A stretch of 64,000 nucleotides of DNA. Origin: an uncultured bacterium (lineage in GTDB: Bacteria; Patescibacteriota; Minisyncoccia; Phycocordibacterales; DATDWN01). This document shows positions 13,409 to 48,724 of the stretch, piece by piece (position 1 is the stretch's first letter; every line of letters starts with the position of its first letter). Under the pieces are notes generated by a model. The model saw only the letters and a list, made by a program, of their open reading frames with translations, did not search any database and was not told where the DNA came from. The position numbers and the translations under genes were made by a program. The stretch covers positions 133,273 to 197,272 of the forward strand of contig CAIOTC010000020.1 in the NCBI GenBank assembly GCA_903861205.1. The letters are read 5' to 3'.

Positions 13409-13527
13409 AACACAAAACAAAAACAAACATAATTTTGGAGCACGGATATTTTTCTGCTGAAAAATTCCTCAAGCCTCCGCCCGCCGGCGTCCGGAGTCTC
13501 CAAAATTATGTTTGTTTTTGTTTTGTT
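13409..13527 (+). repeat. family-B element, copy 2 (divergent core, 30-bp perfect stem)
   Basis: Stem aacacaaaacaaaaacaaacataattttggag / ctccaaaattatgtttgtttttgttttgtt; loop keeps ATTTTTCTGCTGAAAAATT. Confidence 0.55.
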
Positions 13528-13528
13528 A

Positions 13529-14566
13529 TCAAATTCTAAACTCCACAACATCACCATCCTTGACCACATACTCCTTCCCTTCCGTTCTCACAAGCCCTTT
13601 TTCGCGGGCCTTCGCGTAGGAGCCGGCAGAGAGCAGTTTGTCCCATTCGATCACTTCGGCACGAATAAATTTGTCGCGGAAGTCGGTGTGAATGGCCATG
13701 CCAGCCACGGGCGCAGTGCTATCGCGAACAATCGTCCAAGCGCGCGACTCGTCCTCACCGGTCGTGAAATATGTCATCAGGTTCAAAGTCTCGTACGCTT
13801 TTTTGATAAGATCGTCAAAACCTTTTTCAAAAATCGGATCAACTTCGACGTACGGCCCGGGAATTCCCGCCTCGTCGGTGGGCAAATTTTCTTTCACTTC
13901 GGTCAAGTTTTTGGCCGCTGCTTCTGAAGCGTTGAGCACATACAAAATTGGCTTCATGCTCAAAAGTTGCAAAAGTTTTACGTATTCGATTTCCTTTTCG
14001 TCCAAACTAGCAAGAACTGTTCTTGCTAGTTTACTGTCCTCTAAAACTTTTTGGATTTTGGCCAGTGCCTCACCCTCTTCGACCGCTTCTTTTTTGTGAG
14101 ATTTGATATCCTTTTGCAGACCGGCGCGGCGTTTTTCCACCGTCTGCAAGTCCGCTAAAATAAGTTCAAGGTTTATGACCTCAATATCGGAGAGCGGATC
14201 GATTTTATTGTGCACGTGAATGATATCTTTGTCCTCGAAAATCCGCACCACCTCAGCGATGGCATCCACCTCACGAATATTCTGCAAAAATTTATTGCCG
14301 AGCCCCTCACCCATCGATGCGCCCTTGACCAGCCCCGCGATGTCGACAAACTCCACCACGGCCGGAATGGTTTTGGCCGACTTGCTGAACTCCGACAATT
14401 TCCACAGTCGATCGTCCGGCACCGGCACAATCCCGACCGACGGATCAATCGTGCAAAAAGGATAATTCTCCGCCGGCACGGCTTTTTTTGTCAGCGCATT
14501 AAAGAGCGTCGACTTGCCGACGTTCGGGAGGCCCACGATTCCTATACTTAGAGCGGAAGACGTCAT
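13529..14566 (-). CDS. ychF: ribosome-binding ATPase YchF (Obg-like)
   Basis: GIVGLPNVGKSTLFNALT G1 motif; TGS-like C-terminus DGDVVEFRI. Confidence 0.92.
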   Translation of the reverse strand: MTSSALSIGIVGLPNVGKSTLFNALTKKAVPAENYPFCTIDPSVGIVPVPDDRLWKLSEFSKSAKTIPAVVEFVDIAGLVKGASMGEGLGNKFLQNIREVDAIAEVVRIFEDKDIIHVHNKIDPLSDIEVINLELILADLQTVEKRRAGLQKDIKSHKKEAVEEGEALAKIQKVLEDSKLARTVLASLDEKEIEYVKLLQLLSMKPILYVLNASEAAAKNLTEVKENLPTDEAGIPGPYVEVDPIFEKGFDDLIKKAYETLNLMTYFTTGEDESRAWTIVRDSTAPVAGMAIHTDFRDKFIRAEVIEWDKLLSAGSYAKAREKGLVRTEGKEYVVKDGDVVEFRI

Positions 14567-16259
14567 TGTTTTTGTTTAAATTATCGTGTTGTGTAGCGTC
14601 CGAGCCATAGCTATATTCAGGACAGAAGAAGACATAAATTTCGCTTAGATTTATTAGACCGTACACTTGCAAGTCATTGGTGCCAGCCAGCACTTTGTTA
14701 ATAACTTGTCTAATAATGGCCTGTTTTGCTTTAAAATTCAAGCCCTTGAGTTTTTGTAATGCTTCCCCTGCAAACATTTTAACCTCGTCTTCGTTCGGTA
14801 ACAGCACATCATCCTTTGTTACGGCTTCCAAATGAGCTTTGTTTATTTGATCTTCAAATGAACGAATTTTTTCTCGCAAGGGTTTTACATATTCTTCAAA
14901 CTTCTCAAGTGTGATAACTTCCTGAGCATATGCTTTGGCAAAGCGGTCCTCTTGCGATCGCAATTTTACGATTTCTTTTTGCGTCAGATCGGTATCAATT
15001 GACATTTTGTTCAGCACATTATTTCCGCGAGTATTTTTCCATCGCTCGATTTGCTCAAGCAGCAAAGTCGGTGAACTCATAACCTCTTTCATTCTTTCCC
15101 ATACAGCCTCGTCGGCAATTCTGGCGTTGATTCCTGGTTGTTTGCATGTCGGAGGAAATGGAAATGTATGGACACGATTGGTGCATCTGTAATAGAGGTG
15201 TTTGCCTTTCTGCACACCTTCCCCTGCCCTTCTGCCACCACAGACACACCAAATCATGCCAGCCAAGAGATATTCGTTTACTTTGTTTCTGCCAAGAGTC
15301 TCAAAATTCTTTTTCAATCGCAATCCAGCCCGTATAAACAAATCTTTGTCTTCGATAATCGCAGGGACTGTTATCGGGTACCATTCAGTTTTTGGTCTCA
15401 TTTTCCTGCTAGTCTTTTTTATTTTCCTGTACTTTTCAAATTTTTTCGGATTTTCTGGAACTACCGCATATGATGCTCCCCAGTATGTCGTGCCGATAAA
15501 AACCTCGTGTCTTAACAATGTGCTGAGAGTGCTTGTACTCCAAACACCTTTAAGACTTTTTCTTGGTTTTATACCAGTTTTTTGCAACTCTCTGACAACA
15601 CCCCTGACAGTCAATCCATCATCAGCAACCATTTTAAATATATTCTTTATAACATTCGCTTCATATTCGTTGATTTCGTAATGACCGACAACATACTCTG
15701 GAGTTCCGCGTTTTCCTTTGTTTGGAATGTAGTTATAGCCGTATGGAGCTTCGCTGGTCAGGACATGGCCATTTTTAACTCTGCTAATTTTTCCTAATCG
15801 AAATCTTTCTTTGATCTTCATGCGTTCATACTCAGCAAAAACACCTCTCATTTTATACATGATGACATCCTCGTCATTTTTTGGTGGAGGTATAGTAACA
15901 AAAAGTACAGGAATCTCCAGCTCCGATAATTCTTCTATTATCAGTTCTTGCCAAGCACCTCGTCTTGCTAATCGATCTGGGTCATAGGTAAGCACGGCAT
16001 CCCAAATTCTCTTTTTTGCATCAATTCGTAACTGATCAAGATCTGGCCGATACAGTATGTCCCCGCTCCATCCCTCGTCTTTGTATGTTTTAACAATTTC
16101 AAAACCGTGTTCTTTGGCATAAGAATTTACTTCTGCTAGTTGGACCTCAATTGTCTGTTGGTCCTCCTGATTTGAGGTTGAGACCCTTGCATACAAGGCT
16201 ACGAATTTGATGTTTTTTTGTGTTAATTCAATCATGGTTTTGTTGTTATATTTTAGCAA
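14499..16259 (-). CDS. large serine recombinase / integrase (resolvase domain + recombinase domain + zinc ribbon); C-terminus overlaps the ychF 5' end by about 68 nt
   Basis: ALYARVSTSNQ catalytic Ser motif; CVCGGRR...YYRCTNR zinc ribbon; long coiled-coil C-terminus. Confidence 0.85.
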   Translation of the reverse strand: MLKYNNKTMIELTQKNIKFVALYARVSTSNQEDQQTIEVQLAEVNSYAKEHGFEIVKTYKDEGWSGDILYRPDLDQLRIDAKKRIWDAVLTYDPDRLARRGAWQELIIEELSELEIPVLFVTIPPPKNDEDVIMYKMRGVFAEYERMKIKERFRLGKISRVKNGHVLTSEAPYGYNYIPNKGKRGTPEYVVGHYEINEYEANVIKNIFKMVADDGLTVRGVVRELQKTGIKPRKSLKGVWSTSTLSTLLRHEVFIGTTYWGASYAVVPENPKKFEKYRKIKKTSRKMRPKTEWYPITVPAIIEDKDLFIRAGLRLKKNFETLGRNKVNEYLLAGMIWCVCGGRRAGEGVQKGKHLYYRCTNRVHTFPFPPTCKQPGINARIADEAVWERMKEVMSSPTLLLEQIERWKNTRGNNVLNKMSIDTDLTQKEIVKLRSQEDRFAKAYAQEVITLEKFEEYVKPLREKIRSFEDQINKAHLEAVTKDDVLLPNEDEVKMFAGEALQKLKGLNFKAKQAIIRQVINKVLAGTNDLQVYGLINLSEIYVFFCPEYSYGSDATQHDNLNKNNDVFRSKYRNRGPPERRQVDAL

Positions 16260-16265
16260 ATAATT

Positions 16266-16481
16266 TTAAATATTGTCTTGTCGACTTATACCCCTATCCT
16301 TCAGCACCTCCTCGAACAGAATGTCAAAAGCGTTATTAATTCGCTCTTCCACATTGTCATCCTCCATCCAATATGTCACATGCAATCCTTGGACCACGGC
16401 AGAATCAAAAGTTACTTTGTCTTTTGCATTTAGCAAATCAACACAGAACACTTCCAACACCTCATTTTCTAAATTACTCAT
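16266..16481 (-). CDS. small acidic hypothetical protein (possible recombination directionality factor)
   Basis: 71-aa ORF immediately upstream of the recombinase. Confidence 0.3.
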   Translation of the reverse strand: MSNLENEVLEVFCVDLLNAKDKVTFDSAVVQGLHVTYWMEDDNVEERINNAFDILFEEVLKDRGISRQDNI

Positions 16482-16559
16482 ATTTTTTTGGTTATTCGCA
16501 GAGTGATTCCTGCCCGCCCGTCGAAAATCAGACGGACAGAGTCACCCCGCGATGGTTTT

Positions 16560-17420
16560 TTAATTTCGGTTGGACTGCCGAGTGTTCCAACTGTCAATGA
16601 ATTCGGCGATTTCGGCGTTGTCCTTCTCCCACCTCGACATCTGGTTTAGGAACAGGTCCATGTCCAGTTTTCGACGGATGGCTTCTTCCAGCCTTTCCGA
16701 TATAATGTTTGGTGGCAGGGCGTCGAGTTCGTACGCGTTTTCAAAGCCGTACCTCTCGACATACTGGCGGGTCCTCGGATCCTTCGGTTTTACTGGATTT
16801 GGCAGCAAATCGTAGTCTGTGATGTCCTCGAAGGTCAGCAGGACTCTTTGAACCTCGACTTCCACATGGAAAACTTCTTCCATCTTGGTTTTGATGTCCC
16901 GTTCAATGTCTAGCCCAGAAGGATCAAAGTCGCCCATGTAGAGAATCACACCTGGCTTGTCCTGCTCCCGTATCCGTTCGGCGGCGTCATACAGAGCCGA
17001 ACTGCTTCGGTAGCCACCGCCAGCCAGCAATGGCACATCGTATTTGTTGATAATATGGCTAATTGCAACGGCTTTTTCGCACCACACTTCCGTATAGTTC
17101 GGTTGTCCTTGCTGTAGGCTTCGTTTGTACGACTGGCCGACAGTCACGAAAAATGACTTTGGGCTTGTCCATGATGGTGTTTTCTCGGGTTGTCGCCTGA
17201 GGTCGATTATACTTTCCCAGGAGACCATTCCTCGCTCGCGAAGCCTCGAAAGCTTGCCCGAGAGGTTAGTGTAGACATTCCTGGCGTTCTTCAGTCCGAT
17301 GGAAACCAGCCGATAGTAGACTTGTCTCAATGTCAGCGGAACGTTGTATTCCGCCAGGATTTTGTTAACTTTTTCCGCCAAATCAACGTTTTTGAACGGA
17401 AATTTATATCGAATTGTCAT
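16560..17420 (-). CDS. stand-alone topoisomerase VI subunit A / Spo11-like protein ('Mini-A'-type)
   Basis: 5Y-CAP motif TLRQVYYRL; Toprim VWCEKAV and MGDFDPSGLDI (DxD). Confidence 0.65.
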   Translation of the reverse strand: MTIRYKFPFKNVDLAEKVNKILAEYNVPLTLRQVYYRLVSIGLKNARNVYTNLSGKLSRLRERGMVSWESIIDLRRQPEKTPSWTSPKSFFVTVGQSYKRSLQQGQPNYTEVWCEKAVAISHIINKYDVPLLAGGGYRSSSALYDAAERIREQDKPGVILYMGDFDPSGLDIERDIKTKMEEVFHVEVEVQRVLLTFEDITDYDLLPNPVKPKDPRTRQYVERYGFENAYELDALPPNIISERLEEAIRRKLDMDLFLNQMSRWEKDNAEIAEFIDSWNTRQSNRN

Positions 17421-17708
17421 AATAGTTTGCAAATTAATGATAATTTTGCGGTCCGTCGCCGCCGATCCAGACTTGTCCAGTTTTTGAAAAAGCAAAAACC
17501 CCATCTATTACGCGGTAGGAATATCCACAGACCTACCACGCAAGAGATGGGGTTCATTGTGGATATTTCCAAAAAAATAGAGAACAATCGCTATTTTGGG
17601 CGTTTTTCGACTAAAATGGTGCCAAAAGTTGCTTTTCCAAAAGAGAACGGTCCGAAGCAGTTTCAGACCTGACCAACACCGAAATAGTTAATATTCATAC
17701 TTGTCATC

Positions 17709-17724
17709 GATTATACTACAGTCC
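17709..17724 (-). promoter_or_regulatory. element-specific promoter motif GGGACTgTAGTATAAT (copy 1), about 290 nt upstream of the Mini-A gene
   Basis: Conserved 16-mer containing a TATAAT -10 box. Confidence 0.45.
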
Positions 17725-17755
17725 CAAAACACTCTCCTAACCAGCTGATTAAGGA

Positions 17756-18130
17756 TTATTTTTCTGAATTTCTGGCCTGAATGTTCGCCAGTTCTTCATA
17801 ACCGAATTTTTCTCGGCATCCGTCGCAGACATTTCGAAGTTCGTCCGTCTGCTTTATTCCCTGTTTGAATAATCCTCGCCAGAAGTGATCAAAACAAAAT
17901 TTTTCTCCACATTCCCAACATTTGGCCAGCGGATTAAGGTAGCTTTGCCTGCTCTTGCATTTTGCACATCGAGAACGCGGTATAGATGCCAGTCTTTGCC
18001 TCTCGCTGACGGTCATTTTCGTTAATACATTTGTCATATGAGTAAAGTTAACTAATTGATAATCTGATTTGAAAATGTTTGTCGGCGGAACGATTTTTTT
18101 AATCAAACTGTCCGCCAACACGATTTTCAT
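17756..18130 (-). CDS. small zinc-ribbon protein (hypothetical)
   Basis: CAKCKS...CWECGEKFC and CDGC Cys pairs. Confidence 0.35.
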   Translation of the reverse strand: MKIVLADSLIKKIVPPTNIFKSDYQLVNFTHMTNVLTKMTVSERQRLASIPRSRCAKCKSRQSYLNPLAKCWECGEKFCFDHFWRGLFKQGIKQTDELRNVCDGCREKFGYEELANIQARNSEK

Positions 18131-18871
18131 AATTTCATTTCATATTTTTCATATTCATTTCCATAGGACGAGCCCCCCTTTCCAGAAAAAAGCTGGAAGT
18201 GGTTATTTTTTCCACGAGATGCCAAACTAGAAAGAAGAGACGCCAAACACGTATGTCGGCTGATTACATTCACATTTGTGCAACCAACACACCTATTGAG
18301 TTCAAAATAGAAATTCTGTGTCCAGCTGGTTGCTTTCACACAATTCCTTTGTTCTTCGTTTTCAAGCAACATCGTTTTATAAATCAAACTCCCATCAACT
18401 CAGTTTCGCATCACTGATCCTTTCCAGCTGTAGTCAAAATCTTGAAAGCGAAGGCACCATTGAAGGTGGACGAAACTTTCAGAAAACCCACTACAAATCC
18501 CGTGTGAAAGCAACGGGCACTTTAACGAAATAGTTGGTCACTTAAATCCCTCACTCTTTAGACTGCCTGGCAGCTTGGGCGACTCGTCGGGGCTCGCTGT
18601 TCCCCAGGCTTTCGCAAGAATGAACGATTCAAATGCTTATGCCATAATTGGCATTTCTTCGATGTTTCAAAGCCACGCTGTTTCTACTGACTTATCCCCA
18701 CCATTTGCAGGACTTTTGATATGGTTGTCCTGATCCATATTTTGAGTTTGAATTGTAAAAAACACATCCACTAAGTCAGCCGAGAAAGCCAACTTTTTTC
18801 TATATAATAGTTAAATATTCATATTTATGGCTTAAACATTGCCTTTTTAGCAAGTTTTACCATTTGGTTTT

Positions 18872-18887
18872 AATTATACTAAAGTCC
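18872..18887 (-). promoter_or_regulatory. promoter motif GGGACTTTAGTATAAT (copy 2), facing a 740-nt ORF-free region
   Basis: Identical 16-mer. Confidence 0.45.
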
Positions 18888-19016
18888 CAAATACTTCTCC
18901 TAATTTTCAGCCAAGCCTGTGGAATTTCAATCCGTGGGAAAGCTAACTGAGACCGATTCGGAGTTTTCCGAGTGATCAAAATAATTCAAAAAACACAAAA
19001 AATTTCAGAATTCGTC

Positions 19017-19577
19017 CTATTTTTCAGACATTCGAGTGATTATGGCCTCCAATGACCGAGCTTCTTCCACAACATCAGTCAAACCGATTTTCAAACAATT
19101 ATTCAGAAACTTTTCGTATCTTTTGGTGTAAACGCTCCGATACCAGATTCTCGAGGTCATTCTTTCTTGTTGGTAAATCAGTTTCAAAATCTTTTTGGCA
19201 CGAATTAAGACTTGTCCTTGTTTGGAATGAGGATTGAAGTTTTGATATTTAATTCCATGACAATTTTTGCAAAGAAAAATATGTCCGTCTGGTAAAAGAA
19301 AAAGCTTGTGGCATCGACAGTCACATTTGTTGCAATGAAAATATGTCCTATCTCCAAAATAGGTTTCCAAAGTTTCGGTTAGGATTTTTTGTGGTGTGTT
19401 TTCACCTACGACTACATTCAAGTAATAATCGTCACCAATCTTTTCATATTGATAATTAATGTCGTGTCGCTCGTAATCTCTGATAATGTTATCGCCAATT
19501 TTTCTTGGTCGAAACCAGCTATCATCAGTGCGTTTTGCTGTAAGGCAAAAACAATTTTCAATATATGGTCCAGTCAT
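19017..19577 (-). CDS. Cys-rich hypothetical protein (zinc-finger-like); start set at the Met 7 nt downstream of a TATAAT box
   Basis: CNKCDCRCHK...CKNCHG; upstream GGGACTTTAGTATAAT motif directly abuts the ATG. Confidence 0.45.
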   Translation of the reverse strand: MTGPYIENCFCLTAKRTDDSWFRPRKIGDNIIRDYERHDINYQYEKIGDDYYLNVVVGENTPQKILTETLETYFGDRTYFHCNKCDCRCHKLFLLPDGHIFLCKNCHGIKYQNFNPHSKQGQVLIRAKKILKLIYQQERMTSRIWYRSVYTKRYEKFLNNCLKIGLTDVVEEARSLEAIITRMSEK

Positions 19578-19584
19578 GCCTAAC

Positions 19585-19600
19585 ATTATACTAAAGTCCC
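19585..19600 (-). promoter_or_regulatory. promoter motif GGGACTTTAGTATAAT (copy 3), 7 nt upstream of the ATG of the Cys-rich gene (leaderless)
   Basis: Identical 16-mer; TATAAT-gttaggc-ATG. Confidence 0.5.
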
Positions 19601-20020
19601 AATATCCGAGAAAAATGTGGAAAATTTGCAGATTGAATTAGAAGTAGCCACCATATCTACACAGGATGATTAGTTCCACCGACGCATGGAGCTTATCCCC
19701 CAGAGCTTTATTCGTCAGTAAAAAAGCTAAAATCTGTCGGAGAATTTTTTTGCCAAAACAATTGTTTACGGCGTGAATAATCCGAGACAACCACCCATGT
19801 TACTTTTCAAATTTGGAGTCGCAGACACAAACGGTACCGCAACCATAGAGGATAACAAATCTCGTATGGTACCAAATAGACCACCCCCCCGCCAGTGCCT
19901 AAGACACTGCGTGACGAGCAAGGGAGCTAAAACTAAGCAGGTGAGAAGTAAAAAATTAAAAATAAAACCAATACTTCTCGCACGACCAGTCATCGTGTGG
20001 TTTTTTTATTATTAATAATT

Positions 20021-20368
20021 ATGATGAAAAGCATAAGCAAAATCATCGAAGATGGTCCTGTCACAGAATATAAAAATTCTCAGGAAACGCTCGCTCTCGT
20101 ATCAGAGCAAATTAAGGCTCGTTGGGGTGAGTCGGAGTTGAAAAACTACGATCCATTCCACAACGCCAGGACATTTCAGTCTTGGCTCAAGTTGGGGTTT
20201 AGGGTCCGCAAAGGTGAGAAAGCCCTTAGGTCGATTACGTATGTGCAAACCACCGATGCTGACGGCAACATAATCAAGAAGTATCGTAGGCCAGTGTACC
20301 TTTTTTATGTAAGGCAGGTCGAGAGAATCGGCGAACGAAAATCATATGAAGAAGACATTGACGATTAG
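20021..20368 (+). CDS. ArdC N-terminal-domain-like (DUF1738-like) ssDNA-binding protein
   Basis: ARTFQSWLKLGFRVRKGEKAL...VYLFYVRQV resembles the ArdC N-terminal domain. Confidence 0.5.
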   Translation: MMKSISKIIEDGPVTEYKNSQETLALVSEQIKARWGESELKNYDPFHNARTFQSWLKLGFRVRKGEKALRSITYVQTTDADGNIIKKYRRPVYLFYVRQVERIGERKSYEEDIDD

Positions 20369-20549
20369 TTACGCCAACCGCTTGTCTGGCACAGGCGGTC
20401 GCAAATACGATTTGTTGCCAGTTCCAAAGGTGCTCCTAGCCAACCACATTTTGAAAAACATAAGTAATTTTTCAATTGGTGACACAGCTACCGTGGAGTA
20501 CTTATTGGACACCATTATCATTCGAAAAATAATCAATTCAAAATTATGA
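20346..20549 (+). CDS. hypothetical small protein
   Basis: 67-aa ORF in the same-strand gene string of the mobile element. Confidence 0.25.
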   Translation: MKKTLTISYANRLSGTGGRKYDLLPVPKVLLANHILKNISNFSIGDTATVEYLLDTIIIRKIINSKL

Positions 20550-21139
20550 ACACTTCTTACAGGCGAGACATTGTCTCGCCGATTCAGTTAAAGAGCAGGC
20601 CGTACGACATCCAAACTAACCGAGCGGTCCAGGATGAAATCAGAAAAAATATTTGCACCCTTCACTTTACCGCAGAATTTGCCGAGGACACGCAGACACT
20701 TCAAGCATTCAAAAACATCCCTGGTGTAGTCGGGTTTATCTGTACTCTGAGAAAAGACGGCAAAGATGGACCGATTTTAGGTTTTGGTCGTGGCATGACA
20801 GTAATCAACAAGCTCAATCGATATCTCGAAAAAACGGTATCATTCGCCGCGAACGCCTCACTGATCGATTCGGTTGTGAGGGCCACAAAAATGTTGGATG
20901 CCCTGCATATCGATTTTACCAAACAAAACACCGCGGCCGAAACGACTGTGACACCAGTTGAGCAAGAAACATACGGTCAGAGAGAAAATGAATTTGTTCC
21001 CATCACACCCAGACAACGCGGATATTTGCTCAAACTTTTGGAAAATATCGGAGCGGATGATTCGGAAATCAACTCGGTCGATGAGATGAGCAAGAGCGAT
21101 GCCGCAGGACGGATTTCTAAACTCGCGGCAACCAGATAA
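20546..21139 (+). CDS. hypothetical protein
   Basis: 197-aa ORF, 4-nt overlap with the upstream ORF (operon-like). Confidence 0.4.
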   Translation: MNTSYRRDIVSPIQLKSRPYDIQTNRAVQDEIRKNICTLHFTAEFAEDTQTLQAFKNIPGVVGFICTLRKDGKDGPILGFGRGMTVINKLNRYLEKTVSFAANASLIDSVVRATKMLDALHIDFTKQNTAAETTVTPVEQETYGQRENEFVPITPRQRGYLLKLLENIGADDSEINSVDEMSKSDAAGRISKLAATR

Positions 21140-21175
21140 CATTACAAATTATCAAAAAATAACTCAAAAACTATC

Positions 21176-21421
21176 ATGATTACAAACACAATGACAGCTA
21201 GTTTTGAAAGCCCAAAAAGAAATTTTGTTTTTCCGCATGTTGATTATGTTGGCAATGACAAACCAATTGATGACAGACAGCGGTCCATTTTACTGGACTT
21301 AATTTTTCAGAAAGCCATTGATTCAACAGAAAGAGAAATGTGGTTAAATCAAGTTGACGGACTATCCAGCGAAGAGGCCGAGTCGTTCATTTTTGCTTTA
21401 ATCACAAATTCCTGGAAGTGA
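21176..21421 (+). CDS. hypothetical small protein
   Basis: 81-aa ORF. Confidence 0.3.
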   Translation: MITNTMTASFESPKRNFVFPHVDYVGNDKPIDDRQRSILLDLIFQKAIDSTEREMWLNQVDGLSSEEAESFIFALITNSWK

Positions 21422-21491
21422 TGGCAAAATAGTCAAACAAAAAGGCGGCACTTCACGGTGTCGTTTTTTTGTGATATTATAATATAGTTTT

Positions 21492-22697
21492 ATGGAAAAT
21501 TTAGAAATCCCCCAAGAACCAATATCGCCAGAAACAATAAAACCACCTATCGTCGAAAAGGAAGTGGCTTTACCACCCACAGAAAGTGCAGAGGAACGAA
21601 AAGAACGCGAGAGCAGAGAATATGAACAATCTTTAGTGGTGGAAAATCCAGAGCTTGTCGGAATAAATTTTGACCAAGATTTTATCGTTGATGCCAGAAA
21701 TTTTTGGCCACAGGAAAAATACCTGCAATACATTCAAGAAAGAGACGGAAATATATCGGAGGAGTTGCAAGCCATCGTCGGAACTAATAAAGCAGAAAAA
21801 ATTATTTCAGAAAACAAAGAAAAAGAAGCTCGCAAAATGACAGAATTTGACGAGTATTTATCTGGCTTTAATGGAAAATTGCAACATGTCAGAATACACC
21901 CAGCTGGTGAATGTTCTCCGCTTACGCCATCTCAAGCTGTCAAAATAAATCCAGACGGAACTTTTGATGTGGCAATATCACCAGAATTCATTGACCAAAT
22001 AAAAAAAGTTGAAGAGCAAACTGATGACATAACCTTAGTGGTCCAATTTTACGACCACCGTCGCGGTAAAGAAAGATCGTCTAATGTGCCAGAAACCCCA
22101 GAACAAACTGAACAATATGTGGCTCTCTGCCAAAAAATTATTGAAAATGCTGGCGAAGGTGTGCAACTTGAAATCGGAAACGAAACAAATATTTCCAGAA
22201 ACACAGCGATAATGTTTGCTGATAAATTACAACACGCCAGCCATGTTAACTCGGTTGAATATGGAAAATTTTTCTTTGACGTGGCCCAAAAAATAAAGGA
22301 GGAAAGTCTTACCACGAAACTTTCAGTTGCTGGCGTTGCTTGTTTTGACCCGACATATTTGAGAGAAGTTTTGGGAGAAATTAAACAATTGCAGGCGGAA
22401 AATAAAATTGAGACACCGCTTGTCGATACAATCAGTTTTCACCCGTACAGGGATAAACCAGAAGGAGGGGCGATTGAAGTAAAAGACGGAAAATTCACGA
22501 TTAGTCAACTGGATTATGACGAACAACTGGAAGAAATGCAAAAAATCGCCTCGGAGTTCGGTGTGAAGTTAAATGTTGGCGAAATAAATTTTCTGTTTTC
22601 TGACCCAGAGCAAGAAACAAAACTTGAAGAAGCGATTTCTTTGACGGCGGAGAAAAAGGTAAAATCTTTCATATATCCCGCTGTTAATGTTCATTAA
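21492..22697 (+). CDS. hypothetical protein, possible TIM-barrel glycoside-hydrolase-like (LEIGNETN motif)
   Basis: QLEIGNETNI resembles the clan GH-A acid/base NE motif; otherwise unassigned. Confidence 0.35.
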   Translation: MENLEIPQEPISPETIKPPIVEKEVALPPTESAEERKERESREYEQSLVVENPELVGINFDQDFIVDARNFWPQEKYLQYIQERDGNISEELQAIVGTNKAEKIISENKEKEARKMTEFDEYLSGFNGKLQHVRIHPAGECSPLTPSQAVKINPDGTFDVAISPEFIDQIKKVEEQTDDITLVVQFYDHRRGKERSSNVPETPEQTEQYVALCQKIIENAGEGVQLEIGNETNISRNTAIMFADKLQHASHVNSVEYGKFFFDVAQKIKEESLTTKLSVAGVACFDPTYLREVLGEIKQLQAENKIETPLVDTISFHPYRDKPEGGAIEVKDGKFTISQLDYDEQLEEMQKIASEFGVKLNVGEINFLFSDPEQETKLEEAISLTAEKKVKSFIYPAVNVH

Positions 22698-22721
22698 ATT
22701 ATTTCAAATGAGTTTTATCAA

Positions 22722-22832
22722 CTATGGGATAATGCTGGGTACCAGTTTTCTGTAAAAGTTTTCGGCGAATGTGGTTTTTCCACGACCAGCATCGCCCAAA
22801 ATCAGAATCTTTTTGTGTTTGTAATCGGACAT
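22722..22832 (-). pseudogene. 36-aa N-terminal remnant of a P-loop NTPase (Walker A GDAGRGKTTFA)
   Basis: MSDYKHKKILILGDAGRGKTTFAENFYRKL then a stop; too short for a functional NTPase. Confidence 0.4.
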
Positions 22833-22839
22833 AAATATG

Positions 22840-23364
22840 TTAGTTCGTTTTCAGTTCCATAATGGCTTTTTCAATAATCGACCTTATAAATTCCGTTTTC
22901 CCTGCATTGTAAGCATCAAAATCCGAGACAAATTTTTCAGCCAGCTGTTTTTTGAGATTTTCGTATTCATTGACTGATTCTGGGTGAGTTTTCAAATAAT
23001 TTCTAAATAAAATATGCTCTTTCCAATATTGACTTGTCGGCTCGGCAAATGATAGGTGATATTTTGGGATATCGTCAATTCTTTTCTGAAAAAATTTTCG
23101 ATCAGGGATTTGTAATTCCAATTCTGGAATGTAAACATATCCAATTTTTTTAAGCGGTTCAACAAAATTCATTACATCGTTCAAATCGTCCGCCATTGCC
23201 ATCATATCGATGACTGGTTTAGCATTTAATCCAGGAACAGAGGTGCTACCAATGTGTTCGATGTTTACATTGCCTGTAACATTTTGGATTACCACCTTTT
23301 CATCGTTGAAAATGGCTGGCCAATTTTCGGAATATTTGTCTACTTGGATTTTTCTATTTTCCAT
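22840..23364 (-). CDS. GrpB family protein (nucleotidyltransferase-fold, UPF0157)
   Basis: NWPAIFNDEK...HIGSTSVPGLNAKPVIDMM. Confidence 0.8.
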   Translation of the reverse strand: MENRKIQVDKYSENWPAIFNDEKVVIQNVTGNVNIEHIGSTSVPGLNAKPVIDMMAMADDLNDVMNFVEPLKKIGYVYIPELELQIPDRKFFQKRIDDIPKYHLSFAEPTSQYWKEHILFRNYLKTHPESVNEYENLKKQLAEKFVSDFDAYNAGKTEFIRSIIEKAIMELKTN

Positions 23365-23366
23365 TT

Positions 23367-24061
23367 TTAGATAGATATTTTCATTCCTGGTCCAATATAT
23401 TCAATTTTGTCACCAACATCCTTTATCGCTTGCCCATCCTGTAATAGATACACCTTCCATGGAAAATCCATTATCGTTTGCAAATATTTTTTTCGCTCAG
23501 TGTATTTTTTCACATTTTCAGATTCGTTACTTTCTTTTTGGTGTGGAAGCAAAATAAAGTCAGTGATTTTTAATCCGACATGGTCAGTTGGATCATTCGG
23601 CTCCCACCAACCAAATCCAATATCTGGCCCAAGTAGACAACTACCAGCACTTGTGCCAATATACACCACACCCTTATCGAGCAAATTTTTCAGATATGTG
23701 TCCAATTTTGATTTCTTCGCCCAGTCAAGCAAATAGTTCACATCGCCACCGCAAACATCGATAATATCCACACTATTCAATTTTTCTTTTATTTTTTCCG
23801 AGTCATCTTTCAAATCTGCAACCACCACATCATATCTTTTTTCTTTTAGTATAAATATTCCTTGCTCGCTTCCACTTTATTTTCGCTGATTAACTTTGCA
23901 ACAAATTTTGTGCTGTCGGTTGAATATGGGCCCCATTCAATAATATCGCCAGCTGTCGGTATTAGTGCGACTTTTAGATTTGTTTTGCCACCAGTGATCT
24001 CTAGAAAGTCTTTTTCCAGAGAGGAACCGATAAAGCCATTTGATGTTAGAAGTAAATTCAT
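23367..24061 (-). pseudogene. pepE: peptidase E / S51 dipeptidase gene split into two ORFs (23846..24061 N-terminal part, 23367..23828 C-terminal part)
   Basis: N-terminal LLLTSNG...ALIPTAG and C-terminal GTSAGS nucleophile motif lie in separate ORFs. Confidence 0.6.
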
Positions 24062-24558
24062 TTATTTAATTTTTCTTTCATCTCCAATGCTCGCTCCACA
24101 AGTCGATCTCCGATTTTTCCCCAGTCAAAATATTTTTTGAAATCTTTTGGATCAATAAGTTTAATTTCTGAAATATCTCCATCTGGATCAGATTCAAAAT
24201 CTCCGTATGGTTCGACGATGGCAAACATTCTAAACTGTCTTTGAATTCTATTTTCTCCTGGTGTCTCGATGTCTTGATAGCCAATACATTCCTGACGGAG
24301 AACTTTCATATTTGATTCTTCTTTTATTTCTCTTACTGAAGCATCCTCGTATGTTTCGCCTTTTTCAATACTTCCACCAGGAGGAGTCCATCTACCATTT
24401 TCATGTCCAACAATTACCAGTTTGTTATTATAAAAACAGAAAGCATGTACGCCATCTAGCATTTTTGGATCTGTTTCAGCGGTTGGCACACCGTCATGAT
24501 AAGTGAAATTGAATATTTTCCCATCATATTCAAATTGTGATTTTATTTCCATATTCAT
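24058..24558 (-). CDS. Nudix hydrolase
   Basis: Nudix box GGSIEKGETYEDASVREIKEESN. Confidence 0.85.
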   Translation of the reverse strand: MNMEIKSQFEYDGKIFNFTYHDGVPTAETDPKMLDGVHAFCFYNNKLVIVGHENGRWTPPGGSIEKGETYEDASVREIKEESNMKVLRQECIGYQDIETPGENRIQRQFRMFAIVEPYGDFESDPDGDISEIKLIDPKDFKKYFDWGKIGDRLVERALEMKEKLNK

Positions 24559-24607
24559 TAGTATAACTTATTATTTTTTGACTTCATAGTTAAACATAGG
24601 TGCTGGC

Positions 24608-24635
24608 TTGACAGAAAGACAAATTCGTGTATAAT
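24608..24635 (+). promoter_or_regulatory. consensus sigma-70-type promoter TTGACA-N16-TATAAT driving the GC-rich cassette
   Basis: cTTGACAgaaagacaaattcgtgTATAATagaca, followed by an SD and an ATG. Confidence 0.55.
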
Positions 24636-24673
24636 AGACATCGGAATAAAAGTTCACCGACATAGGAGATTCA

Positions 24674-24853
24674 ATGCTTAAATACAGGCTTTTCTTGTTG
24701 TTTTGGGTCCTCGTTTGGGGCTGGGTAGCATTTCGTTGCTTCCAAGTTCTGCCCTACAAGACCCCTGGAGTGCTCTGCACGATCAGCGTTTCGCTGGCGA
24801 TGGTGGCATTTGCCATCACTTTTCACAAATCGATGAAGCACCACTTCGACTAA
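24674..24853 (+). CDS. small membrane protein (59 aa, hypothetical)
   Basis: GGAG SD 7 nt upstream; two hydrophobic segments. Confidence 0.35.
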   Translation: MLKYRLFLLFWVLVWGWVAFRCFQVLPYKTPGVLCTISVSLAMVAFAITFHKSMKHHFD

Positions 24854-24866
24854 ACAAGGAGAAACA

Positions 24867-25184
24867 ATGATTCGACTCATAGCGATGCTTTCTTTCTATG
24901 CTGTGGCATTCGTGCCTGGCTGGTTTGCATTCCAGGAGCTTCGTCAGACTTTCTACGAACTCCGTGGCCTGCAAGCTCACTACAGTTTCGCACAAGAGAT
25001 GACCGTTCGTGGTCACATCTTTGCGGCACTGATTCTCATGATAGTCGCCATGGCAATTGCATGGGTCGGCGATCGTGTGAGTGAGACGAAAGAAGAACGC
25101 GAACGCATGAAAAGAATTCGTTTCGAAGAACACGAACGCGAACTTCAAAACTATATGCGTCCTCGGCCACTTCTCCGTAGGTAA
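24867..25184 (+). CDS. hypothetical membrane protein (105 aa)
   Basis: AAGGAGA SD upstream; two TM helices then a charged tail. Confidence 0.4.
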   Translation: MIRLIAMLSFYAVAFVPGWFAFQELRQTFYELRGLQAHYSFAQEMTVRGHIFAALILMIVAMAIAWVGDRVSETKEERERMKRIRFEEHERELQNYMRPRPLLRR

Positions 25185-25330
25185 TGGGTTGAGACCCCAA
25201 GCAACAGTAAAGGAATCTCCAAAACCTGCAACGCAGGTGTCCGACAATCGTCGGACTTCTACCATAGAAAATTTGAAAAAGTTTTCTGCGGTGGGAGCAA
25301 TCCCTTATCTGTTCTTTGAGGAGATAGACG

Positions 25331-25618
25331 ATGAATACGCCGAGTGTCAAAATCAACTTTCGTGGATTCGAGATTTCAATCGGCATGAGCGAATGTTGGG
25401 TCGGTTGCAACATACTGCCCATGCGTCCAGCCATCATGGTTAACAAGGACGGCAAAGAAGTTGCAATGATTTATTCCACTGGCCGTTCCAACACGGACAA
25501 CAATACCACTCTCGAGGTGGATGGCGAAGTACTGTTCGGGGTCATGCGGGAAATCATCAAAAAAGACCCAGTCGGCCCGATTCGGTTGCCTGAAGGTGAT
25601 GGAGCCATCGAGTACTAG
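25331..25618 (+). CDS. hypothetical protein (95 aa)
   Basis: GAGGAG SD upstream; followed by a GGGCGAC/GTCGCCC hairpin terminator. Confidence 0.35.
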   Translation: MNTPSVKINFRGFEISIGMSECWVGCNILPMRPAIMVNKDGKEVAMIYSTGRSNTDNNTTLEVDGEVLFGVMREIIKKDPVGPIRLPEGDGAIEY

Positions 25619-25630
25619 GTGTTCTTTATA

Positions 25631-25660
25631 GGGCGACGCAGTTTGTCGCCCCTTGTATTC
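25631..25660 (+). terminator. intrinsic terminator hairpin gggcgac-gcagttt-gtcgccc
   Basis: 7-bp GC stem immediately after the 25331..25618 stop. Confidence 0.4.
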
Positions 25661-25726
25661 AGATCATAACGAAAGTTGTGATCTGAAATTCAGGAATCAA
25701 GTGTTCTTTCACAAGGAGCTTTAACC

Positions 25727-26116
25727 GTGCGACAAATAGTGACTTTTGATATGGTTCTCATGGCTTGCCAGCTTGAGAGGTTCTACGAGCTGTATCTGCA
25801 CATTCTCGCGGCAACGTGGGCAAATCAAGAGGCCACCTGTCGCAAACTCGGCATGACCGACTATGATCCTCAGTGCATCAAGCTGAGTTACGAGATGGTG
25901 ATCTTCACAATCCGTAAACGTGCTTCTGGTACACTGATGTGGCATGCTTCGCTCGAACGGAGACCCATCCAGCAACCGAGAGGAATAATCATCCTCGGTT
26001 CATCTTCAAAAGATACAATCAGTGAGATTCTGGCGACAATCGAGCCAAGGACGACTGAGCTTGGGATGTTCCTGAAAATGGAGCACTCTGAGGAATCTTC
26101 TGGAGGAATGTACTAG
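25727..26116 (+). CDS. hypothetical protein (129 aa, GTG start)
   Basis: AAGGAG SD 6-7 nt upstream of the GTG. Confidence 0.35.
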   Translation: MRQIVTFDMVLMACQLERFYELYLHILAATWANQEATCRKLGMTDYDPQCIKLSYEMVIFTIRKRASGTLMWHASLERRPIQQPRGIIILGSSSKDTISEILATIEPRTTELGMFLKMEHSEESSGGMY

Positions 26117-26173
26117 TTCGGTTGAACTCGGCGAGCAGTTTTGATACAATTCCAATCAGAAAAAGGAGAGCAC

Positions 26174-26281
26174 ATGGGACAGTTTGGTTCCAAGGGCGGG
26201 CTGGTCAGGTTGGTTCCGCTCAAGAGCAATCGCAAAGAAAAGGATGCCGACAAAAAGGCACCCAAAAAGGCCGCTCAGTAG
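26174..26281 (+). CDS. small peptide (35 aa), paralog of the next ORF; N-terminus MGQFGSKGG
   Basis: AAAGGAGAG SD; shared N-terminal motif with 26292..26420. Confidence 0.35.
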   Translation: MGQFGSKGGLVRLVPLKSNRKEKDADKKAPKKAAQ

Positions 26282-26291
26282 GAGGACTACG

Positions 26292-26420
26292 ATGCCTGGA
26301 TTCGGCTCGAGGGGAGGATTCCGAGACCTAGGGGCTAATGTTAAGCCCACGAGGACGTTTTCTCCGCCCAAACCCGTGCAAAAAGAAACTGCACCGACTA
26401 CTACCAAACCGAAGTCGTAA
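26292..26420 (+). CDS. small peptide (42 aa), N-terminus MPGFGSRGG, Pro/Thr/Lys-rich C-terminus
   Basis: Perfect AGGAGG SD 6 nt upstream; followed by an intrinsic terminator. Confidence 0.35.
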   Translation: MPGFGSRGGFRDLGANVKPTRTFSPPKPVQKETAPTTTKPKS

Positions 26421-26449
26421 CAAATCGGTTGATTCAAAAGAAAGGAGGT

Positions 26450-26481
26450 CCGCCCGCATGTAATGTGCGGGCTTTCGTTTT
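26450..26481 (+). terminator. Rho-independent terminator gcccgca-tgtaatg-tgcgggc + TTTCGTTTT
   Basis: 7-bp GC-rich stem plus U-tract closing the GC-rich cassette. Confidence 0.55.
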
Positions 26482-45984: not shown

Positions 45985-46135
45985 ATTTAGACAATTTTTT
46001 CTATCCAATCATCCCCCGCCAAATTCTCAATCATTTCCGTCCCCAAATCATCCAGAATCCCCGCATCCGTAAATGCACCCCTCACCGCCCGCATTTTGTA
46101 TTTGGTTTCAGGCATATTGGCATAAATCATACATT

Positions 46136-46447
46136 TTAATCATCAAGCTCACTATCTGTAAACTGGCTTTTGATTACCGCTTTTCTATATTTTAAAATTT
46201 CTAACTCTTTTTTATATTCAGAATTTTTGTTTTCCTCCATTGTTATCATATTTTCCAAAGCTAAAATCGAATATTTAAAATCCTCTTTTAGATTTTCTTT
46301 TATATCATCCATACTTAAAGATCTATTTTCAACTTTTAGTTTTGCGTTTAAGATTTCAAGTTCTTCATCAGACTCCTTGATTTCCCGATCCTTGTTGATA
46401 ATTTCTTTTTCAGTGTCATCAATAAATTGTTGTTTGATATTTTTCAT
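46136..46447 (-). CDS. hypothetical coiled-coil protein
   Basis: 103-aa, Lys/Glu-rich heptads. Confidence 0.35.
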   Translation of the reverse strand: MKNIKQQFIDDTEKEIINKDREIKESDEELEILNAKLKVENRSLSMDDIKENLKEDFKYSILALENMITMEENKNSEYKKELEILKYRKAVIKSQFTDSELDD

Positions 46448-46480
46448 GTATTTAAAATTAATAATTTATCATTGATATTT

Positions 46481-48126: not shown

Positions 48127-48166
48127 AGTTTAATTATACCATATTTACACCTCCTCTGCCACTTCG

Positions 48167-48198: not shown

Positions 48199-48204
48199 GT
48201 TATT

Positions 48205-48720: not shown

Positions 48721-48724
48721 AAAA

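What the first reader, a model, noticed from the sequence alone, without database searches (positions are those of the whole stretch)
14499..24600. Integrated mobile element adjacent to and overlapping ychF: serine integrase, stand-alone Topo-VI-A/Spo11-like 'Mini-A', ArdC-N-like protein, Cys-rich ORFans
The large serine recombinase (14499..16259) ends 68 nt inside the ychF start, which suggests integration at the ychF 5' end. Downstream lies a 286-aa protein (16560..17420) with the Topo VI-A/Spo11 catalytic tyrosine motif RQVYYRL and Toprim motifs CEKAV and DFDPSG. There is no B subunit and no JetABC/Mks partners nearby. It therefore matches the small stand-alone 'Mini-A' Topo-VI-A homologs reported from mobile elements, whose function is unknown. 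The element also encodes an ArdC-N/DUF1738-like ssDNA-binding protein, several zinc-ribbon/Cys-rich small proteins, a possible glycoside-hydrolase-like protein and an about 900-bp ORF-free stretch (18130-19017). Genes further right (P-loop remnant, GrpB, split pepE, Nudix) look like decaying cargo. The right boundary and the att sites are undefined.
Basis: partly seen in the sequence, partly recalled or inferred. Interest (0 to 1): 0.68.

Follow-up and report, generated by a model that had tools for sequence, protein, structure and literature searches.

The report
Integrated Mini-A element at ychF
A small mobile DNA element, about 8 kb long, sits at the start codon of the housekeeping gene ychF in a candidate-phyla-radiation bacterium; it carries a serine integrase, a stand-alone topoisomerase-VI-A-like 'Mini-A' protein of unknown function and a sugar-cleaving enzyme, so it is a new member of known kinds of element rather than a new kind.

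Summary

**Integrase and site.** ORF 14499..16259(-) is a complete large serine recombinase, and its frame runs 68 nt into ychF. Homologous recombinases (60-63% identical) overlap ychF by the same 68 nt in two distant Paceibacteria. Remnants occupy the site in two more. Three closer relatives (YchF 81-83%) have no recombinase there. This supports site-specific integration, not ancestry.

**Mini-A.** The protein at 16560..17420(-) is a bona fide Mini-A:
- RQVYY, E115, DFDPSG and ELDAL are invariant or near-invariant.
- The AlphaFold2 model has pLDDT 94.
- No B subunit or JetABC lies nearby.

**New points.**
- In all 11 related Paceibacteria loci with flank, Mini-A lies within 3.5 kb of an integrase (nine serine, two tyrosine).
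- A covarying structured leader with a terminator-like hairpin precedes Mini-A.
- Three copies of one promoter motif occur in the element.
- The 401-aa protein has a PslG/GH39-like fold and is element cargo.
- The best right end is about 22722, which gives an element of about 8.1 kb.

**Weaker claims.** ArdC-N similarity is sub-threshold. GrpB, pepE and Nudix are not shown to be cargo. The att cores and Mini-A's function remain unknown.

The parts
13529..14566 (-). ychF, the target gene. It is intact, with an extended 'MTSSALSIG' N-terminus.
   Evidence: Pfam MMR_HSR1 and YchF-GTPase_C. Element-free relatives start MKSLSIG, MNLSIG or MQLSIG. Element-bearing or scarred genomes start MSSCxLSIG.
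14543..14652 (-). Left junction. Two homologous 41-nt segments lie 69 nt apart (14652..14612 and 14583..14543). Each holds the last int codons plus an ATG and eight ychF-like codons.
   Evidence: 28 of 41 positions are identical; 0 of 2000 shuffles reach that score. Alignment with L086, L006 and L038 shows a 69-nt insert unique to the window.
14499..16235 (-). Large serine recombinase (integrase). The conserved sequence ends ...NLSEIYV at 14633. The remaining 43 residues are a read-through tail; the last 22 codons plus the stop are ychF sequence in another frame.
   Evidence: The protein is 63% identical to the L086 recombinase and 60% to the L191 one. Both of those also overlap ychF by 68 nt.
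16266..16481 (-). s71, a small acidic protein immediately upstream of int. It is a candidate recombination directionality factor, by position only.
   Evidence: Homologs (50-55% identical) sit at the same position only next to this recombinase clade: L086, L189 and L191. No family match.
16560..17420 (-). Mini-A, a stand-alone Topo VI-A/Spo11-like protein of 286 aa.
17421..17740 (-). Mini-A leader. It holds promoter copy P3 (17740..17710), the box ATGAATATTAACTAT, a small hairpin (17669..17649) and a 23-bp terminator-like hairpin with a U tract (17568..17485).
   Evidence: RNAfold z = -6.3. The hairpin is conserved in L086, L187 and L191. 97% of cells pair, and 4 pairs show compensatory changes. 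The covariance model scores 94 bits on the sense strand and 41 on the antisense strand.
17756..18130 (-). Cys-rich 124-aa protein (zinc-finger-like).
   Evidence: Weak FYVE and AN1 matches below threshold. No homolog in related loci.
18127..18387 (-). Small ORF of 81-86 aa that overlaps the start of the 124-aa gene.
   Evidence: Called as an 81-aa gene on contig L005. No homologs.
18388..18903 (-). Promoter copy P2 (18903..18873) and a leader of about 490 nt with no ORF over 50 aa.
   Evidence: Folding z = -2.5. No Rfam match.
19017..19615 (-). Cys189, a zinc-ribbon protein and family core gene (probable start 19577), with promoter copy P1 (19615..19585).
   Evidence: Homologs in L003, L086, L186 and L191, 28-57% identical. 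Promoter motif.
20021..20368 (+). Small conserved protein with sub-threshold ArdC-N similarity.
   Evidence: Pfam ArdcN E = 6e-4, 20.4 bits against a 22.6 cutoff, over 31 residues. PDB profile search found nothing. Homologs in six related elements.
20346..21421 (+). o67, o197 and o81, a conserved accessory module of unknown function.
   Evidence: Homologs in L003, L086, L089, L186, L187 and L191, in the same order.
21428..22722 (+). Cargo module: a terminator, a promoter and a 401-aa PslG/GH39-like glycoside hydrolase (21492..22697).
22722..22832 (-). 36-codon stump of a P-loop NTPase gene. It marks the probable right end of the element.
   Evidence: Homology to L263 stops at its stop codon.

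Best explanation
Window ~14.6-22.72 kb is an integrative element of about 8.1 kb. It belongs to a family confined, in the data fetched, to Paceibacteria (candidate phyla radiation).

**Integration (shown).** Its large serine recombinase placed it at the very start of ychF. The conserved integrase sequence ends ...EIYV with the codons TAT-GTC. In L086 and L191 the ATG inside those codons is the ychF start, and the integrase frame then reads 68 nt of ychF out of frame. In the window a 69-nt insert separates this integrase-end ATG (14635) from the live ychF start (14566). The integrase frame reads through the insert and then the same 68 nt of ychF.

**Gene layout (shown by comparison).**
- Mini-A, s71 and int form one co-oriented block at the element edge.
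- A conserved structured leader precedes the block. It ends in an intrinsic-terminator-like hairpin.
- Three copies of one promoter motif (GGGACTnTAGTATAAT) head the three leftward transcription units.
- A conserved module (ArdC-N-like, o67, o197, o81) and a PslG-like glycoside hydrolase cargo gene run rightward.

**Mechanism (inferred).**
- The hairpin attenuates transcription into Mini-A-s71-int, which keeps the integrated state quiet.
- On induction, Int and probably s71 (as directionality factor) excise a circle.
- Mini-A cuts and reseals DNA through Tyr36. It works as an Mg2+-dependent, ATP-independent Top6A-like homodimer and serves replication or topological processing of the excised element.
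- The hydrolase acts on a surface polysaccharide during transfer or colonisation.
For: **Integrase.** Domains and integrase family matches are.

**Same site in other genomes.**
- L086 (Nomurabacteria MAG) and L191 carry Int 63% and 60% identical. They also carry Mini-A 68% and 63% and s71 50% and 53% identical. Both show the same 68-nt overlap with ychF.
- Integrase 3' remnants abut ychF in L006 and L038.
- Relatives with 81-83% identical YchF (L179, L181-184, L266) lack any recombinase upstream. For L179, conserved downstream synteny was confirmed. Their YchF N-termini are shorter.

**Mini-A.**

**Integrase linkage.** The window and all 10 other CPR-clade loci with enough flank have an integrase within 3.5 kb of Mini-A. 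Serine recombinases occur in the window, L003, L086, L089, L092, L186, L189, L191 and L192. Tyrosine recombinases occur in L185 and L187. The 80 IMG/VR loci show no serine recombinase near Mini-A.

**Leader and promoters.** See for the leader. The promoter motif occurs three times against 0.09 expected.

**Cargo and right end.**
Against: - No attR or shared core could be identified. A systematic dyad-symmetry reconstruction gave only noise, as did local-alignment searches.
- The left junction carries two diverged copies of the int-end/ychF-start segment. A single attP x attB exchange does not predict this.
- The right flank is a truncated gene whose other half is missing, so the element may no longer be able to excise.
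- No recognisable replication, packaging or transfer gene is present. Relatives carry an RCR Rep (L003) or a Prim-Pol (L089).
- Integrase divergence between elements (60-65%) is similar to host YchF and LeuRS divergence. Sequence identity alone therefore does not exclude long residence.
- Every functional statement about Mini-A, s71 and the hairpin is inference. No biochemical function for Mini-A has been published.
Confidence: 0.7

Rival explanations
1. The element is an immobilised, decaying remnant rather than an active element. It integrated long ago, lost attR by a flanking deletion, and survives only because ychF now depends on it for its start region.
For: - A truncated P-loop gene sits at the right end.
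- The left junction is duplicated and scarred.
- No att core was found.
- A frameshifted Mini-A variant occurs in another sample.
- Decayed relatives exist: L006 keeps only an integrase tail, and L263 keeps a recombinase stump plus o81 and the hydrolase.
Against: - In the window, all family core genes are full length: Int with all three domains, Mini-A with all catalytic residues, s71, Cys189 and the ArdC-N-like/o197/o81 module.
- The three promoter copies are intact.
- The leader hairpin is intact.
Confidence: 0.3
2. It is a small temperate virus or virus satellite. Mini-A proteins were described as viral, and the hydrolase would be a depolymerase.
For: - Mini-A was defined from free and integrated viruses (PMC7671362).
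- 423 IMG/VR stretches and 79 phage genomes encode relatives.
- PslG-like hydrolases resemble phage depolymerases in role (general knowledge).
Against: - No capsid, portal, terminase or tail match in Pfam, PHROGs or NCBIfam for any element protein.
- The element is only about 8 kb.
- The CPR clade of Mini-A (over 60% identity) was not found in IMG/VR. The best viral match is 43%.
Confidence: 0.15
3. Mini-A here is a defence or exclusion nuclease in the manner of JetD/MksG. The element carries it to destroy competing plasmids or phages, not to process its own DNA.
For: - Weak JetD and DUF2399 HMM matches.
- Mobile elements often carry defence genes (general knowledge).
Against: - No SMC or kleisin partners are present.
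- The RQxYY catalytic tyrosine motif is invariant. This fits Top6A/Spo11-style covalent chemistry.
- Mini-A is the most conserved gene of the family (62-72%) and keeps a fixed position beside the integrase. Both features are typical of a core life-cycle gene.
Confidence: 0.1
4. The recombinase/ychF arrangement is ancestral and vertically inherited. It would be a domesticated recombinase, not an insertion.
For: The integrase/ychF overlap recurs in lineages whose YchF is only 58-72% identical. Integrase identity (60-65%) parallels host divergence.
Against: - Closer relatives (81-83% YchF) lack it.
- The accessory content and gene order differ between elements.
- The same Mini-A module occurs with other integrases at secA, prfB and tRNA-Leu sites.
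Confidence: 0.05

Closest known systems
Mini-A subfamily of type IIB topoisomerase A subunits (Takahashi et al. 2019/2020, PMC7671362)
   Same: About 290 aa. [quoted passage not shown] The Toprim domain has E and DxDxxG. A C-terminal (Y/V)ELDAL box corresponds to the published xWELDAL signature. No B subunit is present. It is encoded on a mobile element. Full-length homologs (32-35% identical) occur in Listeria, Salmonella, Pseudomonas, Xylella and Flavobacterium phages.
   Different: It belongs to a tight CPR clade (60-72% identity) that was not recovered from IMG/VR. It sits in small integrative elements with no viral hallmark genes. It is always next to an integrase and preceded by a structured leader.
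Large-serine-recombinase integrative elements and prophages (phiC31, Bxb1, A118, SCCmec Ccr type)
   Same: Three-domain recombinase of about 550 aa at the element edge, adjacent to the attachment site. It inserts into a conserved host gene. A small ORF beside int may act as directionality factor.
   Different: The target is the first codons of ychF. The integrase stop codon is supplied by host ychF sequence, so the C-terminal tail of about 20 aa is host-encoded in the integrated state. The att cores are undefined.
Topo VI A / Spo11 and the JetD/MksG nucleases
   Different: There is no Top6B/GHKL partner and no SMC complex. The protein is shorter and stand-alone.
PslG / GH39 exopolysaccharide hydrolases
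   Different: No Pfam or PDB sequence-level match. It has an extra N-terminal region of about 125 aa. It is carried as a cassette on mobile elements.

Membership tests
Mini-A (type IIB topoisomerase A-like) | About 300 residues, lacking the N-terminal half of 5Y-CAP that binds Top6B | tested here: met
Mini-A (type IIB topoisomerase A-like) | Catalytic RxxY/FY motif | tested here: met
   R32-Q33-V-Y35-Y36. R32, Q33 and Y36 are invariant in 46 sequences.
Mini-A (type IIB topoisomerase A-like) | Toprim metal-binding E and DxDxxG | tested here: met
   E115 and D164-F-D166-P-S-G169 are invariant.
Mini-A (type IIB topoisomerase A-like) | C-terminal T2BI box xWELDAL | tested here: met
   The window has A-Y-E231-L-D233-A-L. 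The family consensus is AVELDALPP. D233 is invariant; E231, L232, A234 and L235 are conserved in at least 90% of sequences. The W position is Y or V here (definition).
Mini-A (type IIB topoisomerase A-like) | No adjacent B (GHKL ATPase) subunit; encoded on a mobile element | tested here: met
   No such domain in any neighbouring ORF. The element context is shown.
Mini-A (type IIB topoisomerase A-like) | DNA cleavage or relaxation activity | not testable with these tools
   No biochemistry is published for any Mini-A.
Large serine recombinase | N-terminal resolvase catalytic domain with the serine nucleophile | tested here: met
   PF00239 at 6.7e-28, residues 20-165. The motif YARVSTSNQ is present.
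Large serine recombinase | Recombinase domain plus zinc ribbon | tested here: met
   PF07508 at 2.3e-14 and PF13408 at 2.6e-8. CcrB and XisF are the nearest NCBIfam models, below equivalog cutoffs.
Large serine recombinase | Defined attL/attR with a shared central dinucleotide and an empty attB in relatives | tested here: inconclusive
   Site recurrence and element-free relatives are shown. No core or attR was identified.
ArdC N-terminal (DUF1738) ssDNA-binding domain | Match to PF08401 above the gathering score | tested here: not met
   20.4 bits against a cutoff of 22.6; only 31 of 123 profile positions matched. A profile of four homologs finds no ArdC in PDB sequences.
Glycoside hydrolase clan GH-A (PslG/GH39-like) | (beta/alpha)8 barrel with an acid/base Glu after strand 4 (NE) and a nucleophile Glu after strand 7 | tested here: met
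Wadjet/MksBEFG (JetD/MksG effector) | Operon with SMC-like JetC/MksB, kleisin JetA/MksF and JetB/MksE | tested here: not met
   PADLOC gives only weak partial JetD matches (E about 1e-3) to Mini-A and nothing for the neighbours.
Topoisomerase VI | A2B2 enzyme with an adjacent Top6B gene | tested here: not met
   No GHKL or transducer domain in the neighbourhood.

The most novel reading that the evidence does not exclude
In this family the attachment site lies at the very 3' end of int, so integration swaps the integrase's C-terminal tail of about 20 aa for one encoded out of frame by host ychF. In L086 and L191, integration also places the ychF start codon inside the int reading frame. This could be an integration-dependent switch. 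The integrated and excised forms would make different integrases, differing in stability or directionality. An essential host GTPase would become transcriptionally and translationally coupled to the Mini-A-s71-int operon and its attenuator. Mini-A would then be the core enzyme that processes the excised circle, which would be the first function assigned to any Mini-A.
Probability: 0.12. Interest if true: 0.7.

Novelty: new member of a known kind. Interest (0 to 1): 0.45.

Why it matters
**Mini-A.** Mini-A is a large family. A profile search finds about 4,000 clusters at 50% identity with E below 1e-30. Its function is unknown, and it is related to Spo11 and Topo VI-A. This locus and its relatives give a compact and repeatedly sampled context: Mini-A, a small ORF and an integrase behind a conserved attenuator. 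That context narrows the hypotheses to the excision, replication or maintenance cycle of small integrative elements. It also offers testable partners and cis elements.

**Mobile elements of candidate-phyla-radiation bacteria.** Such elements are poorly catalogued. This work documents a family of them, with ychF, secA, prfB and tRNA-Leu as integration sites and a mobile PslG-like hydrolase cassette as cargo.

**Limits.** None of this overturns current knowledge. The components belong to known families.

Tried and rejected
**Contig ends as evidence for the junction.** L001 and L002 both stop at 14682. The two assemblies may come from the same read set, which was not checked. Other contig ends on the right side are scattered. 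I treat this evidence as weak.

**A displaced ychF 5' copy at the other end.**
- tblastn with the YchF N-terminus found nothing.
- A degenerate IGIVGLPNVGKS-coding pattern has one copy per locus.
- The crossover must therefore lie upstream of codon 8.

**Direct or inverted repeats linking the left junction to a right end.** Only noise-level hits were found. A 21/24 match inside L086 had p of about 0.03 and lies in a coding region.

**Systematic attB/attP reconstruction by dyad symmetry.** No outlier appeared.

**Other approaches that led nowhere.**
- Composition (GC and tetranucleotides) does not delimit the element.
- An element-borne ychF 5' part, tested by segmental identity: the N-terminal bias is the same in all relatives.
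- Orthology of the window Nudix to the L006 Nudix: only 27% identity.
- Single-protein scans of IMG/VR for Mini-A and Int found nothing.
- Rfam has no match in 13-33 kb.
- The ORF-poor regions next to Cys189 show no nucleotide conservation across elements.
- A literature search for Patescibacteria, serine recombinase and integrative elements returned no papers.

Full report
**Organism and setting**

YchF, LeuRS and neighbouring proteins find their best relatives in Parcubacteria/Paceibacteria MAGs, so the window comes from a candidate-phyla-radiation bacterium. Downstream of ychF the gene order is DUF5671 membrane protein, LeuRS, sigma factor and so on. This order is conserved in dozens of relatives. 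The upstream side is different in every relative examined. The ychF 5' side is therefore a synteny break point.

**The observation**

- ORF 14499..16259(-) is a complete large serine recombinase. It has Resolvase, Recombinase and zinc-ribbon domains. It matches phrog_95 integrase at 7e-87. CcrB and XisF are the nearest NCBIfam models. Alignment with homologs puts its start at the ATG at 16235.
- The protein at 16560..17420(-) carries RQVYY, CEK and DFDPSG. No B subunit, SMC or kleisin gene lies within 10 kb.

**Is it an insertion?**

Several lines say yes.

- *The same arrangement recurs.* A Nomurabacteria MAG (L086-88) and a JGI contig (L191) share the window's order of Mini-A, s71, integrase and ychF. 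A short contig (L189) carries Mini-A, s71 and the integrase start. In L086 and L191 the integrase is 63% and 60% identical, Mini-A 68% and 63%, and s71 50% and 53%. In both, the integrase frame runs exactly 68 nt into ychF.
- *The three integrases stop being alike at the same place.* Their similarity ends at ...NL(S/N/G)EIYV. In L086 and L191 the ychF ATG is embedded in the codons TAT-GTC at that point. The tails beyond are ychF read in another frame.
- *Two further relatives keep only scars.* L006 has a frameshifted integrase 3' fragment (aa 455 to about 545) abutting ychF. The L038 contig starts inside such a tail.
- *Closer relatives lack the element.* L179/180, L181-184 and L266-269 have YchF 81-83% identical. 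For L179, conserved downstream synteny was confirmed. None has a recombinase upstream of ychF, and each has different neighbours.
- *YchF N-termini differ.* Element-free genomes start MKSLSIG, MNLSIG, MQLSIG or MSLSIG. Element-bearing or scarred genomes start MSSC(K/S)LSIG, MSHSSLSIG or MTSSALSIG. This suggests that the element supplies the ATG and the first few codons.
- *No displaced ychF copy exists.* No second copy of the IGIVGLPNVGKS-coding segment occurs in any element-bearing locus. The crossover therefore lies upstream of codon 8.

Together these results fit recurrent, site-specific integration at the ychF start.

**Peculiarity of the left junction**

Relative to L086, L006 and L038, the window has an extra 69 nt. 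Two homologous 41-nt segments lie 69 nt apart: 14652..14612 and 14583..14543. They share 28 of 41 positions, and 0 of 2000 shuffles score as well.

- The upstream copy continues the live integrase, but its ychF-like frame stops after 19 codons.
- The downstream copy is the live ychF start. It resembles the L006 scar.
- The 28 nt between the copies are not duplicated, so this is not a simple tandem duplication.

It looks as if a new element arm abuts an older attL-type scar. A single attP x attB exchange does not predict that, and I leave it unexplained.

**The right end**

Family core genes extend to o81 (21176..21421). Homologs of Cys189, the ArdC-N-like protein, o67, o197 and o81 occur in L003, L086, L089, L186, L187 and L191.

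The next gene, the 401-aa ORF, first looked like a host gene, because a JGI contig carries an 89% identical copy. Three findings changed that view.

- The nucleotide homology (88.6%) is confined to 21428..22722: terminator, promoter, gene and 25 nt beyond.
- In that other genome the cassette is again preceded by an o81-like ORF and by a recombinase stump. The 3' end of the stump overlaps tRNA-Leu(gag).
- That stump belongs to the recombinase clade that sits next to Mini-A in L192.

The hydrolase is therefore element cargo. The L263 locus is a decayed relative of the element.

In the window, the homology ends at 22722. That position is the stop codon of a 36-codon P-loop gene stump that follows GrpB. 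My best estimate of the right end is thus about 22722, which makes the element about 8.1 kb.

GrpB, the split pepE, Nudix and the small ORFs up to livF have no homolog in any related element. I do not count them as cargo.

No att core could be found by repeats, local alignment or dyad-symmetry reconstruction.

**Mini-A**

*Sequence evidence.*
- phrog_6247 'DNA topoisomerase' matches at 1.6e-55.
- There are 406 word-index homologs.
- A profile search of 1.84 billion representatives finds 4,060 clusters at E up to 1e-30.
- Across 46 diverse members, R32, Q33, Y36, E115, K116, G163, D164, D166, P167, G169 and D233 are invariant. ELDAL is nearly invariant.

*Fit to the published definition.* Takahashi et al. 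defined Mini-A by these features: about 300 aa, RxxY/FY, E plus DxDxxG, xWELDAL, no B subunit, and location on a mobile element. All are met here.

*Structural evidence.*
- The AlphaFold2 model is confident, with pLDDT 93.7 and pTM 0.87.
- Foldseek's best PDB matches (ranks 1-5) are Top6A chains.
- By sequence alone, the link to Top6A is weak (E = 0.02 with a profile).

*Known relatives.* Cultured phages of Listeria, Flavobacterium, Pseudomonas, Salmonella and Xylella encode full-length homologs at 32-35% identity. These are the hosts named in the original paper.

*State of knowledge.* A review from late 2024 still calls the role of Mini-A unexplored.

**What is new about the context**

*Integrase linkage.* The CPR clade of Mini-A (60-72% identity) was not found in IMG/VR. 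The window and all 10 other CPR loci with enough flank have an integrase within 3.5 kb of Mini-A.
- Serine recombinases of at least four clades occur in the window, L003, L086, L089, L092, L186, L189, L191 and L192.
- Tyrosine recombinases occur in L185 and L187.
- In 80 IMG/VR loci, Mini-A instead sits among SNF2 helicases, tyrosine integrases and replication or recombination genes. No serine recombinase cluster appears there.
- Mini-A is the best conserved protein of the family.

*Leader.* A conserved leader precedes the gene in the window, L086, L187 and L191. Its parts, in order, are:
- a promoter motif GGGACTnT(A/G)(G/C)TA(T/G)AAT;
- the box ATGAATATwAAyTAT;
- a small hairpin;
- a hairpin of 22-24 bp followed by a U tract, 65-100 nt before the start codon.

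The window leader folds far better than shuffles (z = -6.3). On the four-sequence alignment, 97% of cells pair, against about 50% when the partner is slid. Four pairs show compensatory changes.

The 5' flank is complementary to the hairpin loop, and that complementarity covaries between elements. The arrangement is interleaved (a-b-a'-b').

Many G.U pairs are present, and the covariance model scores 94 bits on the sense strand against 41 on the antisense strand. Both facts point to an RNA-level element. It is most simply a conditional terminator that guards the Mini-A-s71-int block.

*Promoters.* The same promoter motif occurs three times in the window, and only there: 17710, 18873 and 19585. 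The expectation is 0.09. The three copies head the Mini-A unit, the o86-Cys124 unit with its 490-nt leader (the 'ORF-free' stretch), and Cys189.

**Other proteins**

- The ArdC-N label is not established.
- s71 is conserved only beside this integrase clade. By position it is a candidate directionality factor.
- Cys124 and o86 have no homologs in the fetched loci.

**Mechanism: shown and inferred**

*Shown or strongly supported.*
- The element is integrative, and a serine recombinase gene abuts the target.
- The target is the ychF start.
- The element is modular and mosaic, with exchangeable integrases and cargo.
- Mini-A keeps every catalytic residue of Top6A/Spo11.
- A structured leader precedes Mini-A.

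*Inferred.*
- The leader attenuates transcription of Mini-A-s71-int.
- s71 assists excision.
- Mini-A cuts and rejoins DNA through Tyr36 without ATP, in the service of the excised circle.
- The hydrolase acts on a surface glycan.

No replication or transfer gene is recognisable. attR is not identified and the flank is truncated. The copy in this window may therefore be immobilised; I give that reading about 0.3.

**Verdict**

The finding is real and was read largely correctly. It is a new member of known kinds: Mini-A proteins, and serine-recombinase integrative elements. The useful new context lies in the integrase linkage, the leader RNA, ychF-start targeting and the mobile PslG-like cassette. 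Interest is moderate.

Noticed in passing
window 9472-12417 (-): LeuRS carries a NUDIX domain (aa 382-501, Pfam 2e-16) inserted after the editing domain. The LeuRS of the Nomurabacteria relative L086 has the same insertion.
   Followed up: partly
window 24608-26472: A perfect sigma-70 consensus (TTGACA-16-TATAAT, 24608-24635, + strand) faces four small ORFs with no family match. GC is raised to 0.45-0.49. Terminator-like hairpins lie at 25631-25651 and 26452-26472. No homologs occur in any fetched locus.
   Followed up: partly
window 13412-13440 / 13498-13526: A 29-nt perfect inverted repeat lies just downstream of ychF. Two short metagenome contigs end near it.
   Followed up: no
window 45268-49792: A low-GC block (0.32-0.36) holds a GmrSD-like DUF262+HNH nuclease, a Fic/DOC protein and an EcoRI-type adenine methylase. 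This is probably a defence island. An adjacent high-GC block at 41-44 kb encodes ORFans.
   Followed up: partly
L005 position 1643 = window 16786: A contig from another sample is identical to window 14971-18428 except for a 1-nt deletion that frameshifts Mini-A. This is either a natural variant or an assembly error.
   Followed up: partly
L263 8421-11231 (also L264, L265): A decayed relative of the element sits next to rplS. A recombinase stump (447 aa, no catalytic domain) overlaps tRNA-Leu(gag) by 20 nt. An o81-like ORF follows, and then the same hydrolase cassette at 88.6% nucleotide identity.
   Followed up: yes
L185 1616-2509; L187 3342-4298: Two related Mini-A elements use a tyrosine recombinase instead of a serine one. 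The L187 element lies upstream of prfB-ftsE-ftsX.
   Followed up: partly
L186 4555-5958: A reverse transcriptase (RVT_1, 2e-26) and a divergently oriented 116-aa ORF lie next to a Mini-A element. This may be a retroelement or diversity-generating cassette.
   Followed up: no
L185 and L186, upstream of Mini-A: A second type of structured leader is shared by these two loci. A long-range stem encloses a small terminator-like hairpin (z = -3.3 to -3.5). It is unrelated in sequence to the window's leader.
   Followed up: no
window 19978-20000 (+): A terminator-like hairpin with a T run lies immediately upstream of the start of the ArdC-N-like gene. Its placement echoes the hairpin-before-gene layout of Mini-A.
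   Followed up: no
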